Of a DNA stretch of 32,000 nucleotides, positions 11,706 through 15,778 are shown piece after piece. A program made the translations under genes and the position numbers. This DNA comes from Methanoregula sp. (GTDB taxonomy: Archaea > Halobacteriota > Methanomicrobia > Methanomicrobiales > Methanospirillaceae). The DNA is taken from positions 42,004-74,003 of the forward strand of contig NZ_PMZU01000026.1 of assembly GCF_003170075.1 (NCBI RefSeq), written 5' to 3'. The number at the start of each line of letters is the position of its first letter. Within the stretch, counting starts at the first letter, position 1. The notes below the pieces were generated by a model. It saw only the letters and a list, made by a program, of their open reading frames with translations, had not been told where the DNA came from and searched no databases.

Positions 11706-11994
11706 CCAAAAAAGGTGCACACTGGGACAAAACCACGCTCTCACCCTGTGCGGCCGATGCACTCTCCTGGACCCGTCAGCTCACGGTCGCGGGAAAAACA
11801 GTTGGGCCCCCACCGGTTTTGACAAGGCCGTTGCAGCCATCGAGGCCCGGGAGCTCATCTCCGATTTAGAGATAGCAGCAGAATTCATGCGCCGGATACA
11901 GCAGGATAATTACATCCCACCGGCCTTAGCAAATGAGTATGCTGTTGCCGTGCTCGCTGAATACCACCGGGCCATGGCAAAAAAAAGCAACTGA
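11677..11994 (+). pseudogene. Start-less open frame with protein-like C-terminal ~60 aa: orphan gene fragment or non-canonical start
   Basis: The frame is open from 11677 to TGA at 11992-11994 and reads ..CTLGQNHALTLCGRCTLLDPSAHGRGKNSWAPTGFDKAVAAIEARELISDLEIAAEFMRRIQQDNYIPPALANEYAVAVLAEYHRAMAKKSN. There is no in-frame ATG/GTG/TTG before 11887, so it is absent from the ORF track. Confidence 0.3.
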
Positions 11995-12074: not shown

Positions 12075-13364
12075 ATGGATCCCCTCCTCGCGTTTGTGAT
12101 CACACTCGCCCTCATCACTATCGTCAGCCTCCGGTACAGGATCTCCCCGTTCTTCACCCTGATCGGCGGGGCGGTCCTGTTCGGGTTTCTGGCGGGCATG
12201 ACATTCGATGCGACCATGCTTGGGATCATCGCAGGTGTCGGCAAGGTATTTTCTGCATTCGGCATCATCATTCTCTGCGGGGCAGTCATTGCAAAGCTCC
12301 TGCAAGAGCAGCACCAGATCGAAGAGATCGTGGCCGATATCCGTAGGTACGTGAAAAACCCGCCGGTGATCGCCGGGGTATCCGGCTATCTTTTATCCGT
12401 ACCTATTACCTGCTGCATCACAGCCTATATCATGCTGAACCCGATCCTCGATAGCCTTGAGAAAGACAAAACGAAGCGCAACGTGCTTCTGTACCTTGCT
12501 GCGGTCGGTGGAATCATTTCGTATGCGCTCATATTCCCGACACCGGTTGTCATCCCGCTCTACGAAGCGTTCTCCAGGGGAATGAGCCCGGTTCTGTTTG
12601 ATGCCATATCTATCCCGCTCTCACTTCTGGTACTGGGTGGAATCCTCCTTTATTTCCGGTTCGTCCATCCAGATGTGGTCACCCCAAAAAGAACTGAATC
12701 ACCAGCAACGCCCCATCAAATCCCCGGGACCGAGACTCCGGTCATGCGTCAGGGAATCCACTGGCGGGCATGGGCTCCCTTTATCGCGATCCTGATCGCC
12801 ATTCCGGTCGCTCTTCTGCTCCTGCACCTGTCGCAGATGAGTATGATTAACGTAATCATGCTGGTCGGTGCAGTCACGGCCATCGCCCTTGCGTCTCCGT
12901 CAATGCGAACTCAGGGATTGTCACAGGGCGCAAAACACGCAGGCATAATTATCTTTGACATCTGCGGGGCGGGAGCGCTTGGTTATGTGATCGTCAGCAG
13001 CGGGTTTGCGCAGGATGCCATGGGCCGGATGACCCTGCTCATCCCCATCATCCTCGTGCCGTTCATCCTTGCCGCCTTGATCGAGACTGCGCAGGGCTCA
13101 CGGGTGGTGACGGCGGTGATTACGGCCGAAGTCCTCGCAGGATCGACCGTGGCCGGTGCAATCCACCCGATCCCCCTCATCCTCCTTATCAGTGCCGGGT
13201 CGTGTATCGTGTCCTACGTGACCGATCCCTTCTTCTGGCTTGTCCAGCGGACAACCGGGGACGATATTAAAACCGTGGTGAAGAATTACACGCTGCCCAT
13301 CGCACTCGCGGGTATCGGGATCTTTATTGTTGCCCTGGCCCTGGAGTACCTGGTCTTCCGGTAA
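12075..13364 (+). CDS. GntP-family (gluconate:H+ symporter-like) permease, substrate unknown
   Basis: 429-aa polytopic membrane protein. The N-terminal pattern ..ISPFFTLIGGAVLFGFLAGM..IIAGVGKVFSAFGIIILCGAVIAKLLQE..I..IVADI.. matches the GntP/DsdX family architecture. Confidence 0.6.
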   Translation: MDPLLAFVITLALITIVSLRYRISPFFTLIGGAVLFGFLAGMTFDATMLGIIAGVGKVFSAFGIIILCGAVIAKLLQEQHQIEEIVADIRRYVKNPPVIAGVSGYLLSVPITCCITAYIMLNPILDSLEKDKTKRNVLLYLAAVGGIISYALIFPTPVVIPLYEAFSRGMSPVLFDAISIPLSLLVLGGILLYFRFVHPDVVTPKRTESPATPHQIPGTETPVMRQGIHWRAWAPFIAILIAIPVALLLLHLSQMSMINVIMLVGAVTAIALASPSMRTQGLSQGAKHAGIIIFDICGAGALGYVIVSSGFAQDAMGRMTLLIPIILVPFILAALIETAQGSRVVTAVITAEVLAGSTVAGAIHPIPLILLISAGSCIVSYVTDPFFWLVQRTTGDDIKTVVKNYTLPIALAGIGIFIVALALEYLVFR

Positions 13365-13390
13365 ATGATATAAAAGGTTGATCTCTCGGA

Positions 13391-13777
13391 TTATTCTACA
13401 AATAATCTGCCCTGTTCGGTCAGCGAGTAGATGATCCAGTTGCCGTGATACTCGCCTTCAATCAGGCCGCTCTCTTTCAAAATATTCAGGTGATAGGAAA
13501 GTTTTGAGCCGGCAAGGTGCATGAACCGGTTAATAACGCAGACACAGAGCGGCTGGTCGCGGAGCAGAGAGAGGATAGTGAGCCGCAGCGGGTCGGAGAG
13601 TGCATGGTATCTCCTGCTCTGCTCAATGAGATCCTTTTCTTCCGGAATATGCCGGGAGAGAAATTCAACTCCTCCCAGATGTTCAATGGCCTCAAGGCCC
13701 ACATCGGGATTCATGGCCGCTCTCTTTTTGGGTCTGGGTTTTCGCGGGCCGCAACAGGAACTTTTTGATAATTTCAT
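13391..13777 (-). CDS. arsR: ArsR/SmtB-family metalloregulator (hgcAB/ars-associated)
   Basis: ATG at 13777 gives MKLSKSSCCGP... Winged-HTH core YHALSDPLRLTILSLLRDQPLCVCVINRF..LSYHLNILKESGLI with the CVC metal(loid)-sensing motif. Divergent from hgcA. The track start at 13837 would run through the shared promoter. Confidence 0.85.
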   Translation of the reverse strand: MKLSKSSCCGPRKPRPKKRAAMNPDVGLEAIEHLGGVEFLSRHIPEEKDLIEQSRRYHALSDPLRLTILSLLRDQPLCVCVINRFMHLAGSKLSYHLNILKESGLIEGEYHGNWIIYSLTEQGRLFVE

Positions 13778-13847
13778 TTCAAAATAATATGAAATGCCAA
13801 CGTATATACGCTTCACTTGCAGACAATATTTCAACAAAATTTGAAAT
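13775..13847. promoter_or_regulatory. Divergent arsR/hgcA control region: palindromic TATA flanked by two inverted repeats (candidate ArsR operators)
   Basis: CATTTCA-N8-TGAAATG at 13775-13796, overlapping the arsR ATG. Perfect palindrome CGTATATACG at 13801-13810, which contains the TATA element. ATTTCAA-N6-TTGAAAT at 13828-13847, between the TATA and the hgcA ATG at 13861. TGAAATGCC also occurs as a direct repeat at 13790-13798 and 13842-13850. Confidence 0.5.
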
Positions 13848-13860
13848 GCCGTGAAGTACT

Positions 13861-14985
13861 ATGACGAACATACCATCCGGCCCTAATCACAAAGGAACTC
13901 CGTTGAGGAGTGAACCATCCATAGAAAACACCATGCAATCCTGCTGCGGGAGTGTTCAAAAAGAGCCCGCATCCGCATGTTTCTGCACCGGAAAAACCGG
14001 CCCGGCACCGGGAATCCGTACCACCACATCCATAATCACATCTGCCGACAGGCGGGATCATTTCCTTGCCCGGTGGGGCGTCAACCGGATGGGCCGTATC
14101 GTTACGCCGGGTCTGTACCGGCTCGGCAGCCCAACCACAGATTCACCCGTCTTTGCGTCCGCTAACTACACACTCAGCTTTGACGCACTCCGTTCAGCGC
14201 TTGCCGGCACTGATGCATGGATCCTGGTGCTGGATACCAAGGGGATCAATGTCTGGTGCGCTGCCGGGAAAGGGACGTTTGGCACCGGTGAACTGATCCG
14301 GCGTATTGCGGTGACCGGGCTTTCCGAAATTGTCTCGCACCGCAGGATCATCCTCCCCCAGCTTTCGGCATCCGGGGTTTCGGCACATGACGTCGCCCAT
14401 TGGTCCGGTTTCTCGGTCGAGTACGGCCCGGTCCGGGCCCGGGATCTCCCGGCATACCTTCCCACCCGCACGGCAACGCAGGAGATGCGGACCGTCCGGT
14501 TCCCGCTTGCTGACCGGCTCCTCCTCTGCCCCATGGAACTTGTGCACGCACTCCTGCCCATGATTGCAGTAGCAGTCGTGTTGTACTTCCTTGCCGGCCC
14601 GGTTGCGGGGCTCGCAGCAATTGCCGCCGTGCTCGCAGGGACCGTGCTCTTCCCGGCGCTGCTCCCGTATCTCCCGACGCATGATTTCTCCATGAAGGGC
14701 TTCATCCTCGGGGCCATTGTCACGATCCCGTTTGCAGCAGCGTTTGCCCGGGCACCCGGCCTCTCCGGCATCGCACAGGTCATCGCGGTGCTCGTCCCGT
14801 TCCTCATCATCCCGGCCGTTGTCGCATACCTCGCCCTCAACTTCACCGGCTCGACCACGTTCACCTCCCGGACGGGCGTGAAAAAAGAGATCTTCCGGTA
14901 CGTGCCGACAATGGTGCTCATGGCAGGCGCCGGGACAATCCTCGGGATCGCGCTTGGCGTCCTCCGGCTCATGGGGGTGACCTGA
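13861..14985 (+). CDS. hgcA: Mercury methylation corrinoid protein HgcA
   Basis: Hallmark cap-helix motif NVWCAAGK at aa 130-137 (nt 14248-14271, Cys codon 14257-14259). N-terminal CFeSP-like corrinoid-binding domain followed by a C-terminal domain with about 5 TM helices. Directly followed by hgcB. An alternative start at Met25 (13933) is possible. Confidence 0.9.
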   Translation: MTNIPSGPNHKGTPLRSEPSIENTMQSCCGSVQKEPASACFCTGKTGPAPGIRTTTSIITSADRRDHFLARWGVNRMGRIVTPGLYRLGSPTTDSPVFASANYTLSFDALRSALAGTDAWILVLDTKGINVWCAAGKGTFGTGELIRRIAVTGLSEIVSHRRIILPQLSASGVSAHDVAHWSGFSVEYGPVRARDLPAYLPTRTATQEMRTVRFPLADRLLLCPMELVHALLPMIAVAVVLYFLAGPVAGLAAIAAVLAGTVLFPALLPYLPTHDFSMKGFILGAIVTIPFAAAFARAPGLSGIAQVIAVLVPFLIIPAVVAYLALNFTGSTTFTSRTGVKKEIFRYVPTMVLMAGAGTILGIALGVLRLMGVT

Positions 14986-15323
14986 TGTTTAACGCTTACG
15001 CAGAAAACACGCTCAAGTATTTCCCGGAGAAATGCATCAACTGCCGGCGCTGCACGCAGGTCTGCCCTCACGGAGTTTTTACTGAAGGGAAAAACCGGGC
15101 AGCACTCGTTAATCCCCGGGCCTGCATGGAGTGCGGGGCCTGTGCGAAAAACTGCCCGGTGCAGGCAATTGAGGTACAGAGCGGCGTCGGATGCGCATGG
15201 GCCATGATCAGCGCGGCACTCAGGGGAAAGGACATGGACAGTGGCGAATGCAGCTGCGGGGGGCCGGAGAGTTCCTGTTGCGGCCAGACAAAAGAAGACC
15301 CATGTTCTTACGGGGCAGAATAG
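14985..15323 (+). CDS. hgcB: Mercury methylation 2[4Fe-4S] ferredoxin HgcB
   Basis: Two CX2CX2CX3C motifs (CINCRRCTQVC, CMECGACAKNC) that include the HgcB-diagnostic CMECGA. Cys-rich tail with vicinal CC (aa 98-99, nt 15276-15281). The start overlaps the hgcA stop (TGATG). Confidence 0.9.
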   Translation: MFNAYAENTLKYFPEKCINCRRCTQVCPHGVFTEGKNRAALVNPRACMECGACAKNCPVQAIEVQSGVGCAWAMISAALRGKDMDSGECSCGGPESSCCGQTKEDPCSYGAE

Positions 15324-15334
15324 AGGAATCAGCA

Positions 15335-15778
15335 ATGAAGGCAACCACAAAATCTGATGATGCAGTGGCAAGTTACATGAGCAGGTTCACCTGCTCTGCA
15401 GCAGTGTTTTCTGCCTTTTCCGAAGATCTTGGCCTAAATCCCGATACGGCAAAAAAGATCGCATGCGGATTCGGTGCAGGGATATCGAAGACCGGCAATA
15501 TGTGCGGTGCGGTGTCCGGGGCAATCATGGTTATCGGGTTGAAATACGGAAAGACCGAAGCGGATGACGAAGCCGCAACCGAGAAGACACGGGCCCTCGT
15601 CCGGCAGTTCATTCACGAGTTTATAGCAAAGAACGGCTCGGTCAACTGTACGGATCTGCTCGGACTTAACATTAGCAACCCCGAAGAATTTGCACAGGCA
15701 CGCGATAATAAACTGTTTGTCACGAAATGCCCGGAACTTGTGCGGGACGCCACGGAAATCCTTGAAAAAATCCTTTGA
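15335..15778 (+). CDS. C_GCAxxG_C_C family putative redox-active protein
   Basis: ATG at 15335 follows a GAGGA RBS, 11 nt after hgcB. FTCSAAVFSAF..ACGFGAGISKTGNMCGAVSGA..NCTDL..KCPELV reproduces the C / GCAxxG / C / C signature of the family. Confidence 0.8.
   Translation: MKATTKSDDAVASYMSRFTCSAAVFSAFSEDLGLNPDTAKKIACGFGAGISKTGNMCGAVSGAIMVIGLKYGKTEADDEAATEKTRALVRQFIHEFIAKNGSVNCTDLLGLNISNPEEFAQARDNKLFVTKCPELVRDATEILEKIL

What the first reader, a model, noticed from the sequence alone, without database searches (positions are those of the whole stretch)
13771..13860. Symmetric divergent control region: two ATTTCA/TGAAAT palindromes flanking a palindromic TATA element
Within the 83-nt arsR-hgcA spacer there are three symmetric elements:
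- CATTTCA-N8-TGAAATG at 13775-13796, covering the arsR start codon and the presumed leaderless TSS.
- A perfect 10-nt palindrome CGTATATACG at 13801-13810, which can serve as a TATA box for both directions.
- ATTTCAA-N6-TTGAAAT at 13828-13847, sitting where the hgcA TSS is expected.

TGAAATGCC is also directly repeated at 13790-13798 and 13842-13850. The layout is what one expects for a dimeric winged-helix repressor that controls both its own gene and the hgcAB-ars unit. It gives a concrete operator candidate for hgcAB regulation in an archaeon.
Basis: seen in the sequence. Interest (0 to 1): 0.6.

Follow-up and report, generated by a model that had tools for sequence, protein, structure and literature searches.

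The report
Conserved ArsR operator pair controlling hgcAB
The short gap between a metal-sensing repressor gene and the mercury-methylation genes of a Methanoregula archaeon holds two copies of one 20-bp symmetric site flanking a single TATA box, a layout kept almost unchanged in about 75 related genomes, which gives a concrete and testable switch for mercury-methylation genes in methanogens.

Summary
Window 13776-13795 and 13828-13847 are both ATTTCA-N8-TGAAAT. They have the same spacing, not N8 versus N6, and lie 52 bp apart around a TATATA core at 13803-13808.

The flanking genes are an ArsR/SmtB regulator (13391-13777, minus strand) and hgcA-hgcB-C_GCAxxG-acr3-arsC.

Of 80 Methanoregulaceae/Methanomicrobiales loci that encode relatives of this ArsR (49-86% identity), 76 keep the proximal dyad. 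It ends exactly on the A and T of the arsR ATG. 69 also keep the second dyad 51-53 bp away. Pairwise identity is 0.98 in the dyad arms and 0.97 in the TATATA core, against 0.41-0.45 at synonymous sites of arsR.

The cassette belongs to the regulator, not to hgcA. The divergent partner is hgcA in only about 14 loci. Elsewhere it is a DGC, cupin, thioredoxin-like, ArsP or unknown gene. Only 8 of 80 hgcA-anchored metagenome loci carry the cassette.

The 10-nt perfect palindrome is neither significant nor conserved. Only the TATATA core and AAG/CTT flanks are.

Best reading: ArsR dimers occupy both dyads of a shared-TATA bidirectional archaeal promoter. They repress leaderless arsR and the hgcAB-ars operon until a thiophilic metalloid binds. 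Binding, start sites and inducer are untested.

This is a new member of a known kind. Interest is moderate.

The parts
13391..13777 (-). arsR: an ArsR/SmtB-family metalloregulator of 128 aa. Conserved Cys8, Cys9 and Cys78-x-Cys80.
   Evidence: Pfam HTH_5 at 1.8e-12. NCBIfam NF033788 scores 70.9 bits against a cut-off of 55. The AF2 model matches SmtB, SrnR, CadC and CzrA. M1 is invariant; C8, C9, C78 and C80 are conserved in at least 90% of 37 sequences.
13776..13795 (.). Proximal operator dyad ATTTCA-N8-TGAAAT, extended to CATTTCA...TGAAATG at 13775-13796. It spans -18 to +2 relative to the arsR ATG, so its last two bases are the A and T of the start codon.
   Evidence: Present at the same position in 76 of 80 orthologous loci. 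Arm identity is 0.98, against 0.41-0.45 at synonymous sites.
13799..13801 (+). Purine-rich, BRE-like flank on the hgcA side of the TATA. It reads AAC here; the family consensus is AAG, seen as CTT at -24 to -22 on the arsR strand. It abuts the proximal dyad.
   Evidence: Column conservation and pairwise identity of 0.85. The BRE assignment is an inference from the BRE-TATA-BRE promoters described in PMC6640164.
13801..13810 (.). TATA element. The conserved core is TATATA at 13803-13808, which is -31 to -26 from the arsR ATG. The full 10-nt palindrome CGTATATACG is confined to this window and its closest relatives.
   Evidence: Core identity is 0.97 and information content is 1.7-2.0 bits. The palindrome arose in 17% of shuffles and most loci lack it.
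13811..13813 (-). BRE-like flank on the arsR side of the TATA. It reads AAG on the arsR strand, at -36 to -34.
   Evidence: Pairwise identity of 0.83 and the column counts. The BRE assignment is an inference.
13828..13847 (.). Distal operator dyad ATTTCA-N8-TGAAAT, with conserved core TTCAA-N6-TTGAA. It spans -70 to -51 from the arsR ATG and covers the predicted hgcA start site at about 13829-13836.
   Evidence: It sits at -70 in 64 aligned loci, at -71 in 6 and at -69 in 5. Core identity is 0.984. The start-site prediction comes from the 49-52 bp rule for shared-TATA promoters.
13852..13855 (+). Shine-Dalgarno-like GTGA, 5 nt before the hgcA ATG. It implies a short hgcA leader of about 25-32 nt.
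   Evidence: The commonest arrangement in related loci is a 12-nt gap after the distal dyad that contains G(A/G)(A/G)GTGA. None of the 75 arsR upstream regions has an SD-like 4-mer.
13861..14985 (+). hgcA, the mercury-methylation corrinoid protein. It carries the NVWCAAGK motif.
   Evidence: NCBIfam NF040863 scores 434.8 bits against a cut-off of 275. Pfam CdhD. Translation.
14985..15323 (+). hgcB, a 2[4Fe-4S] ferredoxin. Its start overlaps the hgcA stop codon.
   Evidence: NCBIfam NF040864 scores 118.6 bits against a cut-off of 99. Fer4 domains.
15332..15778 (+). C_GCAxxG_C_C family putative redox protein, 8 nt after hgcB.
   Evidence: Pfam PF09719 at 4e-34. TIGR01909.
15801..16874 (+). acr3, an arsenite efflux transporter.
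   Evidence: TIGR00832 scores 432.8 bits against a cut-off of 282.8.
16871..17299 (+). arsC-like arsenate reductase of the LMW-PTPase type. It overlaps acr3 by 4 nt and is the last gene of the unit, followed by about 450 nt of non-coding DNA.
   Evidence: Pfam LMWPc. TIGR02691 scores 112.7 bits, below its 174.3 cut-off. Sequence.

Best explanation
The 83-nt spacer is a compact bidirectional archaeal promoter with two operators for the adjacent ArsR/SmtB repressor.

Promoter. A single TATA box (core 13803-13808) with purine-rich, BRE-like flanks on both strands nucleates pre-initiation complexes in both orientations.
- Leftward, it starts a leaderless arsR mRNA at or within 3 nt of the ATG (13777-13780).
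- Rightward, it starts the hgcA-hgcB-C_GCAxxG-acr3-arsC mRNA about 52 bp away (about 13829-13836), with a short leader that carries an SD-like sequence.

Repression. ArsR homodimers bind the two identical 20-bp dyads (ATTTCA-N8-TGAAAT), which are centred 52 bp apart, about five helical turns, so they face the same side of the DNA.
- The proximal dimer covers the arsR start site and abuts the BRE used for the hgcA direction.
- The distal dimer covers the hgcA start site.
- Together they block TFB and RNA polymerase recruitment in both directions.

Induction. A thiophilic metal(loid), most likely As(III), binds the Cys8/Cys9 plus Cys78-x-Cys80 site, lowers DNA affinity and derepresses both units.

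Shown here: the sequence elements, their strong positional conservation, the identities of the genes, and the start codon.

Inferred: that this ArsR is the protein that binds, that it represses, where the start sites are, that the two dimers cooperate, and what the inducer is.
For: Elements and chance.

Conservation:
- The proximal dyad is present in 76 of 80 loci and ends on the ATG.
- The dyad pair at 51-53 bp is present in 69 of 80 loci and in 0 of 800 shuffled loci.
- Identity is 0.98 for dyad arms and 0.97 for TATATA. It is 0.60 for the columns between the blocks, 0.41-0.45 at arsR synonymous sites and 0.33 beyond -72.
- Variable columns are interspersed with invariant ones.

The cassette follows arsR whatever the divergent gene is: hgcA, DGC, cupin, thioredoxin-like, ArsP or unknown. 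It persists in a second ArsR clade at 52-55% identity, again with exactly 52 bp between dyads.

The recognition helix SKLSYHL is invariant, which matches the invariant TTCA/TGAA core.

The protein is ArsR/SmtB by sequence and by fold. The CVC motif in alpha3 and the N-terminal CC pair are conserved.

Geometry:
- The TATA sits at -32 to -25 from the arsR ATG, and no SD-like sequence lies upstream of arsR (0 of 75).
- The divergent genes have an SD-like GTGA about 12 nt past the distal dyad.
- Archaeal shared-TATA promoters give divergent start sites 49-52 bp apart with BRE-TATA-BRE motifs.

The downstream genes are tightly packed, with gaps of 22 nt or less or overlaps, and include acr3 and arsC.

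There is bacterial precedent for ArsR-type control of hgcAB and for a link between arsR presence and lower hgcA transcription.
Against: - There is no binding, footprint, start-site or expression data for this or any orthologous locus.
- Symmetric, compensatory changes between the half-sites are few. The clearest is ATCTCA...TGAGAT in L064 and L067, plus AATTCA...TGAATT variants of the distal site.
- No protein-DNA covariation could be seen, because the recognition helix never varies.
- A paralogous ArsR in some genomes has a very similar dyad, so cross-binding or a different binder is not excluded.
- The spacers inside both dyads are also conserved (0.78-0.85). They may carry extra promoter functions, for example an alternative TATA for hgcA in the proximal spacer.
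- The dyads are offset by 6 bp from mirror symmetry about the TATA.
- My anchoring of the alignment on the dyads inflates their measured conservation somewhat.
- The inducer is guessed from the cysteine layout and the neighbouring genes.
Confidence: 0.7

Rival explanations
1. The dyads are real operators, but a different factor binds them. That factor could be a paralogous ArsR (the MATARCCPADC... type seen in some related genomes) or an unrelated regulator. In that case the adjacent ArsR is not the protein that controls hgcAB.
For: Very similar dyads (ATTTCAAT...TTGAAAT, followed by CCGGTTCCGGGATATATATCG) sit in the divergent promoter of a second ArsR paralog in L015, L018, L042 and L071. No direct link between this protein and this DNA was demonstrated.
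Against: - The cassette tracks this arsR clade in 76 of 80 loci whatever the partner gene is, and the proximal dyad is fused to the arsR start codon.
- The 32-kb window holds no second ArsR paralog.
- Autoregulation at a dyad that overlaps its own promoter is the family norm (own knowledge of ArsR/SmtB repressors).
Confidence: 0.12
2. The inverted repeats act as nucleic-acid structures: a hairpin in the hgcA 5' leader that affects translation or stability, or a cruciform. They are not protein operators.
For: Each dyad can form a 7-8 bp stem. The stems fold at -4.2 and -6.5 kcal/mol with z-scores of -4.2 and -2.9 when taken in isolation. A few changes keep the arms complementary.
Against: - The stems are AU-rich and weak. 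In its 50-nt context the distal one scores z = -1.0.
- The proximal dyad lies upstream of a start codon with no leader or SD, so it would not be transcribed in the arsR mRNA.
- The same arm sequence, not just complementarity, is kept at both sites and across 75 genomes, and the arms almost never vary. That fits sequence-specific recognition rather than pairing.
- There is no Rfam match.
- The fixed 52-bp phasing around a TATA has no RNA rationale.
Confidence: 0.05
3. ArsR binds the dyads, but the two directions use separate core promoters rather than one shared TATA. For example, hgcA could be driven from the conserved AT-rich spacer of the proximal dyad (AAATAATA, 13782-13789), giving a leader of about 50 nt. 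The central TATA would then serve arsR only.
For: The spacers inside the dyads are AT-rich and conserved (0.78-0.85; columns -11 to -8). No start-site data exist.
Against: - The central TATATA is the best and most conserved TATA match (0.97).
- It carries conserved AAG/CTT flanks on both sides at equal distance.
- The 52-bp dyad spacing equals the commonest start-site spacing of shared-TATA promoters in T. kodakarensis.
Confidence: 0.12
4. The symmetry is a chance property of an AT-rich intergenic region and has no function.
For: A single 6+6 dyad appears in 28% of shuffles of the spacer, and a 10-nt palindrome in 17%.
Against: - Two dyads with the same arm and spacing arose in 0 of 20,000 shuffles.
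- Positional conservation holds across about 75 genomes whose synonymous sites are saturated.
Confidence: 0.01

Closest known systems
Canonical ArsR/SmtB repressor-operator systems (R773 ArsR, SmtB, CzrA, CadC)
   Same: - A winged-helix protein of the same family by Pfam, NCBIfam and fold.
- A CVC motif in alpha3.
- An imperfect or perfect AT-rich inverted repeat overlapping the regulator's own promoter, which implies autoregulation.
- Neighbouring metal(loid) resistance genes (acr3, arsC).
   Different: - The setting is an archaeal TBP/TFB promoter, not sigma-70.
- There are two identical dyads 52 bp apart flanking one TATA, and one of them is fused to a leaderless start codon.
- The half-site orientation is TTCA-N8-TGAA rather than the TGAA...TTCA of 12-2-12 operators (own knowledge).
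- The N-terminal vicinal Cys8-Cys9 plus Cys78-x-Cys80 layout resembles the CadC alpha3N site or C. glutamicum ArsR1, rather than R773 ArsR (own knowledge; the positions are).
ArsR2 (DND132_1054) of Pseudodesulfovibrio mercurii ND132, the experimentally shown hgcAB regulator
   Same: An ArsR-family (PF01022) regulator immediately upstream of hgcAB. ars genes lie nearby in methylator genomes. The proposed mechanism is repression relieved by arsenic.
   Different: - ND132 arsR2 is co-oriented and co-transcribed with hgcAB. Here arsR is divergent.
- ND132 ArsR2 has Cys26, Cys47, Cys49, Cys86 and Cys88. This protein has Cys8, Cys9, Cys78 and Cys80.
- No operator is described for ND132 in the text I searched.
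- This organism is an archaeon with a different transcription apparatus.
Archaeal bidirectional BRE-TATA-BRE promoters (Thermococcus kodakarensis, Pyrococcus furiosus)
   Same: - One quasi-symmetric TATA lies between divergent units.
- Purine-rich flanks sit on both strands.
- The expected spacing between start sites is 49-52 bp, which matches the 52-bp spacing of the two dyads.
   Different: In those organisms most such promoters yield non-functional antisense RNA. Here both directions serve genes, and each predicted start site is covered by a repressor dyad. The start sites here are predicted, not mapped.
MsvR of Methanothermobacter and Methanosarcina (an ArsR-family archaeal regulator of a divergent msvR-fpaA promoter)
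   Same: An archaeal ArsR-family wHTH protein that binds repeated boxes in its own divergent intergenic region, overlapping core promoter elements (own knowledge).
   Different: - This protein is not an MsvR. NCBIfam MsvR scores 24 bits against a cut-off of 220.
- At 128 aa the protein is too short to carry MsvR's C-terminal V4R domain (V4R is own knowledge; not tested here).
- The box sequence is different.
- It is a putative metalloid sensor rather than a redox sensor.
AbrB/SpoVT-like (PrlF/MazE-like) gene upstream of archaeal hgcA (Zhang et al. 2023, PMC10349881)
   Same: Both are candidate transcriptional regulators placed immediately upstream of hgcAB in Methanomicrobia. I found this gene in 30 of 80 hgcA-anchored loci.
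   Different: It is a different protein family, is co-oriented with hgcA, and has no dyad cassette. The ArsR cassette is the minority arrangement, present in 8 of 80 loci.

Membership tests
ArsR/SmtB metalloregulators | HTH_5-type winged-helix DNA-binding domain with the alpha1-alpha5/beta-hairpin fold | tested here: met
   Pfam PF01022 at 1.8e-12. NCBIfam NF033788 scores 70.9 bits against a cut-off of 55. The AF2 model has a mean pLDDT of 76.7 and its best Foldseek hits are SmtB, SrnR, CadC, HlyU and CzrA with probability 1.00.
ArsR/SmtB metalloregulators | Cysteine-based metal(loid) sensing site (CVC in alpha3, with or without N-terminal Cys) | tested here: met
   C78-V-C80 and C8-C9 are conserved in at least 90% of 37 relatives. 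Metal binding itself was not tested.
ArsR/SmtB metalloregulators | Binds an inverted repeat overlapping its own promoter (autoregulation) | tested here: inconclusive
   A dyad overlaps the arsR start in 76 of 80 loci and is under strong constraint. Physical binding cannot be tested with these tools.
ArsR/SmtB metalloregulators | Homodimer; the inducer lowers DNA affinity | not testable with these tools
   Needs biochemistry.
hgcAB-linked ArsR2 type (P. mercurii ND132) | arsR immediately upstream of hgcA | tested here: met
   arsR at 13391-13777 and hgcA at 13861-14985, 83 nt apart.
hgcAB-linked ArsR2 type (P. mercurii ND132) | Same strand as hgcAB and co-transcribed with it | tested here: not met
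   arsR is on the opposite strand, so the arrangement is divergent. Co-transcription in Desulfovibrio-type loci is described.
hgcAB-linked ArsR2 type (P. mercurii ND132) | Four-cysteine motif (C47, C49, C86, C88 in ND132 numbering) | tested here: not met
   The paper gives those positions. This protein has only C8, C9, C78 and C80. I did not hold the ND132 sequence, so I made no direct alignment.
Archaeal shared-TATA bidirectional promoter | A single conserved TATA box between divergent units | tested here: met
   TATATA sits at -31 to -26 from the arsR ATG, with 0.97 identity across 51 dereplicated loci.
Archaeal shared-TATA bidirectional promoter | BRE on both sides of the TATA | tested here: inconclusive
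   Conserved AAG at -36 to -34 and CTT at -24 to -22 (0.83-0.85). No BRE consensus for Methanoregula was available to score them against.
Archaeal shared-TATA bidirectional promoter | Divergent start sites about 49-52 bp apart | not testable with these tools
   No transcript data. The two dyads are 52 bp apart.
MsvR | Reaches the MsvR equivalog cut-off | tested here: not met
   NF053755 scores 24.2 bits against a cut-off of 220, and the protein is only 128 aa.
HgcA/HgcB mercury-methylation pair | Scores above the equivalog cut-offs and carries the signature motifs | tested here: met
   HgcA scores 434.8 against 275 and HgcB 118.6 against 99. NVWCAAGK in HgcA and CMECGAC in HgcB are visible in the translations. 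That these motifs are the family signatures is own knowledge.

The most novel reading that the evidence does not exclude
In Methanoregulaceae, hgcAB has been captured as cargo of a portable, metalloid-responsive ArsR promoter-operator cassette that otherwise drives arsenic-handling genes. Under this reading, mercury methylation capacity in these peatland and sediment methanogens is switched on by arsenite or another thiophilic metalloid rather than being constitutive. That would point to a native HgcAB role in metalloid detoxification. It would also mean that two phased repressor dimers clamp both orientations of a single-TATA promoter, a control logic not yet described for archaeal bidirectional promoters.
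Probability: 0.3. Interest if true: 0.75.

Novelty: new member of a known kind. Interest (0 to 1): 0.5.

Why it matters
How hgcAB is regulated, and what it is natively for, are open questions in mercury biogeochemistry.

What is known:
- The only experimental case is a bacterial ArsR-like regulator, and no operator has been defined for it.

What this locus adds:
- A precise 20-bp operator consensus, ATTTCA-N8-TGAAAT.
- A full promoter model with predicted start sites.
- Evidence that the arrangement recurs in many uncultured Methanoregula genomes, with hgcAB embedded at the head of an ars-type operon in about 14 of them.

The idea can be tested with recombinant protein and synthetic DNA alone, without a cultured host. 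The motif can also be used to flag metalloid-inducible hgcA genes in metagenomes and metatranscriptomes.

Tried and rejected
1. The sigma-70 promoter and intrinsic-terminator scans are irrelevant for an archaeon and gave nothing useful.
2. The 10-nt palindrome as a special element is rejected. It arose in 17% of shuffles and is not conserved beyond TATATA.
3. Protein-DNA covariation between the recognition helix and half-site variants was uninformative, because SKLSYHL is invariant. L064 and L067 have ATCTCA...TGAGAT together with a G-to-S change just before the helix, but that is a single lineage.
4. Symmetric covariation of the arms gave only a handful of events. It is supportive but weak.
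5. The RNA-family search found no match, and the hairpins are weak.
6. I looked for a cultured, confirmed methylator that carries the cassette. A second protein search with the distant-clade ArsR returned only Methanoregula MAGs and unnamed metagenome contigs.
7. Literature searches for an hgcAB promoter, start site or operator found none.
8. The extra ATTTCAT/ATGAAAT repeat at 13771-13777 and 13789-13795 comes from the Lys2 codon of arsR and is not conserved.
Full report
**Observation**

Reading 13300-14100 confirms every element at the stated coordinates.
- CATTTCA-N8-TGAAATG lies at 13775-13796.
- CGTATATACG lies at 13801-13810.
- ATTTCAA-N6-TTGAAAT lies at 13828-13847.
- TGAAATGCC lies at 13790-13798 and at 13842-13850.

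The two sites have the same architecture, ATTTCA-N8-TGAAAT. They form a 23-nt direct repeat (13776-13798 and 13828-13850, 87% identical) exactly 52 bp apart.

The exact dyad occurs only twice in the 32-kb window, and both copies are here. In 20,000 dinucleotide shuffles of 13771-13860, two separate dyads with the same arm and spacing never arose. A single 6+6 dyad arose in 28% of shuffles, and a 10-nt perfect palindrome in 17%. The pair of dyads is therefore highly non-random, and the palindrome on its own is not.

**Genes**

The ORF at 13391-13777 (minus strand) is an ArsR/SmtB metalloregulator.
- Pfam HTH_5 matches at 1.8e-12.
- NCBIfam NF033788 scores above its cut-off.
- The closest solved relatives by sequence are the CadC-like Lmo1102, NmtR, SrnR and CadC.
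- An AlphaFold model (pLDDT 76.7) matches SmtB, SrnR, CadC, HlyU and CzrA.

Rightward lie five genes.
- hgcA scores 434.8 bits on NF040863 against a cut-off of 275.
- hgcB scores 118.6 against 99.
- A C_GCAxxG_C_C family protein follows.
- acr3 scores 432.8 against 282.8.
- The last gene is an LMW-PTPase-type arsC.

These genes overlap or are separated by 22 nt or less, and about 450 nt of non-coding DNA follows them. They most likely form one operon.

**Start codon**

The mechanical ORF list extends arsR to a TTG at 13837. However, 37 relatives are 126-134 aa long and align end to end with the 128-aa form. M1 is invariant, and C8, C9, C78 and C80 are conserved in at least 90% of them. The ATG at 13777 is therefore the start, and it lies inside the proximal dyad.

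**Orthologous spacers from the regulator's side**

A scan of one genome per species returned 80 loci that encode relatives at 49-86% identity. Nearly all are Methanoregula, Methanoregulaceae or Methanomicrobiales MAGs.
- In 76 of the 80, ATTTCA-N8-TGAAAT (2 mismatches or fewer) sits at -18 to +2 relative to the arsR start. The A and T of the ATG are the last two bases of the dyad.
- Of the four exceptions, three are N-terminally truncated arsR matches and the fourth is also a partial match, beginning at query residue 10.
- Across the 75 aligned sequences (74 of these loci plus the window), a second dyad sits at -70 in 64, at -71 in 6 and at -69 in 5.
- A stricter core test (TTCA-N8-TGAA twice, 51-53 bp apart) is met by 69 of 80 loci and by 0 of 800 block-shuffled loci.

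Across 53 dereplicated sequences, information content is about 2 bits over the dyad arms and TATATA, and 0.1-0.4 bits beyond -72. Clearly variable columns (for example -49, -45 to -43, -21, -20, -12, -7) are interspersed among invariant ones.

Pairwise identities against a neutral benchmark:

| Region | Pairwise identity |
|---|---|
| Proximal dyad arms | 0.98 |
| Distal dyad core | 0.984 |
| TATATA core | 0.97 |
| AAG/CTT flanks | 0.83-0.85 |
| Columns between the blocks | 0.60 |
| ArsR protein | 0.61 |
| Four-fold synonymous sites of arsR | 0.41-0.45 |
| Beyond the cassette | 0.33 |

One caveat applies. I anchored the rows on the proximal dyad and filtered for the register of the distal one, which inflates those columns somewhat. 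The fractions of loci that pass the filters show the effect is real.

**What the cassette belongs to**

The divergent partner differs between loci.
- hgcA is directly adjacent in 13 loci plus the window, and lies within 4 kb on that side in 22 loci.
- Other partners are a DGC-domain protein (PF08859), a cupin, a Thioredoxin_3 protein, ArsP permeases, and an 88-aa protein with no Pfam match.
- acr3, arsC and the C_GCAxxG gene usually lie further along.

From the hgcA side, 80 metagenome loci encode HgcA at 52-82% identity. Only 8 of them carry the dyad pair with a divergent arsR. Thirty carry a co-oriented AbrB/SpoVT-like gene instead. That gene is the "TA-like" candidate regulator reported for archaeal methylators in PMC10349881.

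Two of the eight (L093 and L098) encode a more distant ArsR at 52-55% identity. They still show two dyads (GATTCA-N8-TGAAAT) exactly 52 bp apart around a TATATA.

The cassette is therefore the regulator's own divergent promoter-operator, and hgcAB is one of several cargoes placed under it.

**Promoter geometry (inference)**

The conserved TATA octamer lies at -32 to -25 from the arsR ATG. No SD-like 4-mer occurs in the 16 nt upstream of arsR in any of the 75 sequences, which fits a leaderless arsR mRNA.

The divergent genes most often start 12 nt beyond the distal dyad, preceded by G(A/G)(A/G)GTGA (GTGA at 13852-13855 in the window). They are therefore leadered.

Conserved AAG (-36 to -34) and CTT (-24 to -22) flank the TATA at equal distances, giving a purine-rich element upstream of the TATA on each strand.

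Published start-site maps describe exactly this kind of promoter.
- In P. furiosus, BRE-TATA-BRE promoters give start sites 49-50 bp apart, confirmed in vitro.

Applying that rule puts the arsR start at 13777-13780 and the hgcA start at about 13829-13836.
- The proximal dyad would then span roughly -18 to +2 of arsR and abut the BRE used for the hgcA direction.
- The distal dyad would span the hgcA start site.
- Repressors bound at or just downstream of the TATA and over the start site are the usual archaeal way of blocking TFB and RNAP recruitment (own knowledge).

The dyad centres are 52 bp apart, about five helical turns, so two dimers would lie on the same face of the DNA. Cooperativity between them is speculation.

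**Sensor (inference)**

C78-V-C80 is the alpha3 CVC motif of arsenic- and cadmium-type family members. The vicinal C8-C9 pair in the N-terminal arm recalls the CadC alpha3N site and the Cys15/Cys16/Cys55 site of Corynebacterium ArsR1 (own knowledge). Together with acr3, arsC and ArsP as regular cargo, As(III) is the most likely inducer. Hg(II), Cd(II) and others are not excluded.

**Rivals**

- A different binding protein is possible. A paralogous ArsR in some relatives has a very similar dyad next to its own TATA. However, the window has no such paralog, and the cassette tracks this arsR.
- An RNA or DNA hairpin role is unlikely. The stems are weak and AU-rich, and there is no Rfam match. The proximal dyad is not transcribed in a leaderless arsR mRNA. 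The arm sequence itself is kept, not merely its complementarity.
- Separate core promoters for the two directions cannot be excluded without start-site data.
- Chance is excluded.

**Comparison with what is known**

The system works like a classical autoregulated ArsR/SmtB divergon and meets that family's sequence and fold criteria.
- It is not the ND132 ArsR2 type. It is divergent rather than co-transcribed, and its cysteine layout differs.
- It is not an MsvR, scoring 24 bits against a cut-off of 220.
- ArsR-like control of hgcAB is established in one bacterium and inferred from metatranscriptomes.
- arsR next to archaeal hgcA had been reported only in a Methanosphaerula genome among the confirmed methylators examined.
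- No operator or promoter for hgcAB appears in the searchable literature.

What is new here is the operator sequence, the two-dyad/shared-TATA layout and its wide conservation in Methanoregulaceae. The principle itself is already known.

**Verdict**

This is a new member of a known kind, of moderate interest, because it turns archaeal hgcAB regulation into a directly testable problem.

Noticed in passing
L015:2298, L018:6226, L042:4917, L071:7576 (also L014:4794, L028:4854, L030:7346): A second, paralogous ArsR (N-terminus MATARCCPADCALRSDWEDE...) has its own divergent promoter with a very similar dyad, A(T/C)TTCAA-N6-TTGAAAT. The dyad is followed directly by CCGGTTCCGGGATATATATCG and then a gene beginning M(D/E)YETIKI.KVTGKCPACE. 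This suggests a family of related operators and possible cross-talk between the two regulators.
   Followed up: partly
L022:4582, L031:4591, L032:5863, L050:4475, L051:4694, L070:4532 and others: A dyad-like sequence, A(A/C)TTCA-N8-TGAAAT, lies inside codons 3-9 of an apparently leaderless gene that begins [31 protein letters not shown]. That start looks FmdE-like to me by eye; I did not run a family search. A TATA-like TTATTTATAG sits about 22 nt before the ATG. The gene often lies near arsR. The sequence could be a downstream operator or simply a conserved coding sequence.
   Followed up: no
L022, L033, L050, L055, L064, L067, L070, L073, L075 (divergent partner of arsR); window 11741-11985: An 88-aa protein (MGNDNKPCCAADALRRIRQIPINGIPTGI...) with no Pfam match is a frequent divergent partner of this ArsR. 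The window holds a weak match to it, split across two reading frames and probably a frameshifted relic, just upstream of the gntP-like gene.
   Followed up: partly
L081, L085, L088, L097, L099, L101, L103, L110 (30 of the hgcA-anchored loci L081-L160): Most archaeal-type hgcA loci carry a co-oriented AbrB/SpoVT-like gene of about 95 aa (...VEAVLSVDERGQMVLPKDVREKAGIKTGDKLALISW...) ending just before hgcA. L081 has it despite 78% HgcA identity to the window. So closely related hgcA genes sit under two different candidate regulators.
   Followed up: partly
L064 and L067, -18..+2 and -70..-51 from the arsR ATG: Both arms of the proximal dyad changed together (ATCTCA...TGAGAT), and the left arm of the distal dyad is also ATCTCA. 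The ArsR in these loci has Ser instead of Gly just before the recognition helix (SSSKLSYHL). This may be a co-evolved specificity variant, but it is a single lineage.
   Followed up: no
L079 (JAPLJQ010000579.1, 1589 bp): This contig is binned as a Deltaproteobacteria MAG, yet it carries the Methanoregula-type arsR and both dyads at -18 and -71. It is probably a mis-binned archaeal contig.
   Followed up: no
window 12075-13364 and many loci (e.g. L018, L027, L032, L039, L061, L074): A GntP-family permease gene converges on the 3' end of arsR in the window and in many related loci at 65-90% identity. The arsR-gntP pairing is conserved even where the divergent cargo differs.
   Followed up: no
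L003, L005, L021, L045, L077: In these loci hgcA is not the first gene after the cassette. A cupin or another small ORF lies between the distal dyad and hgcA (215-540 nt), so hgcAB seems to have been inserted at different positions in the unit.
   Followed up: partly
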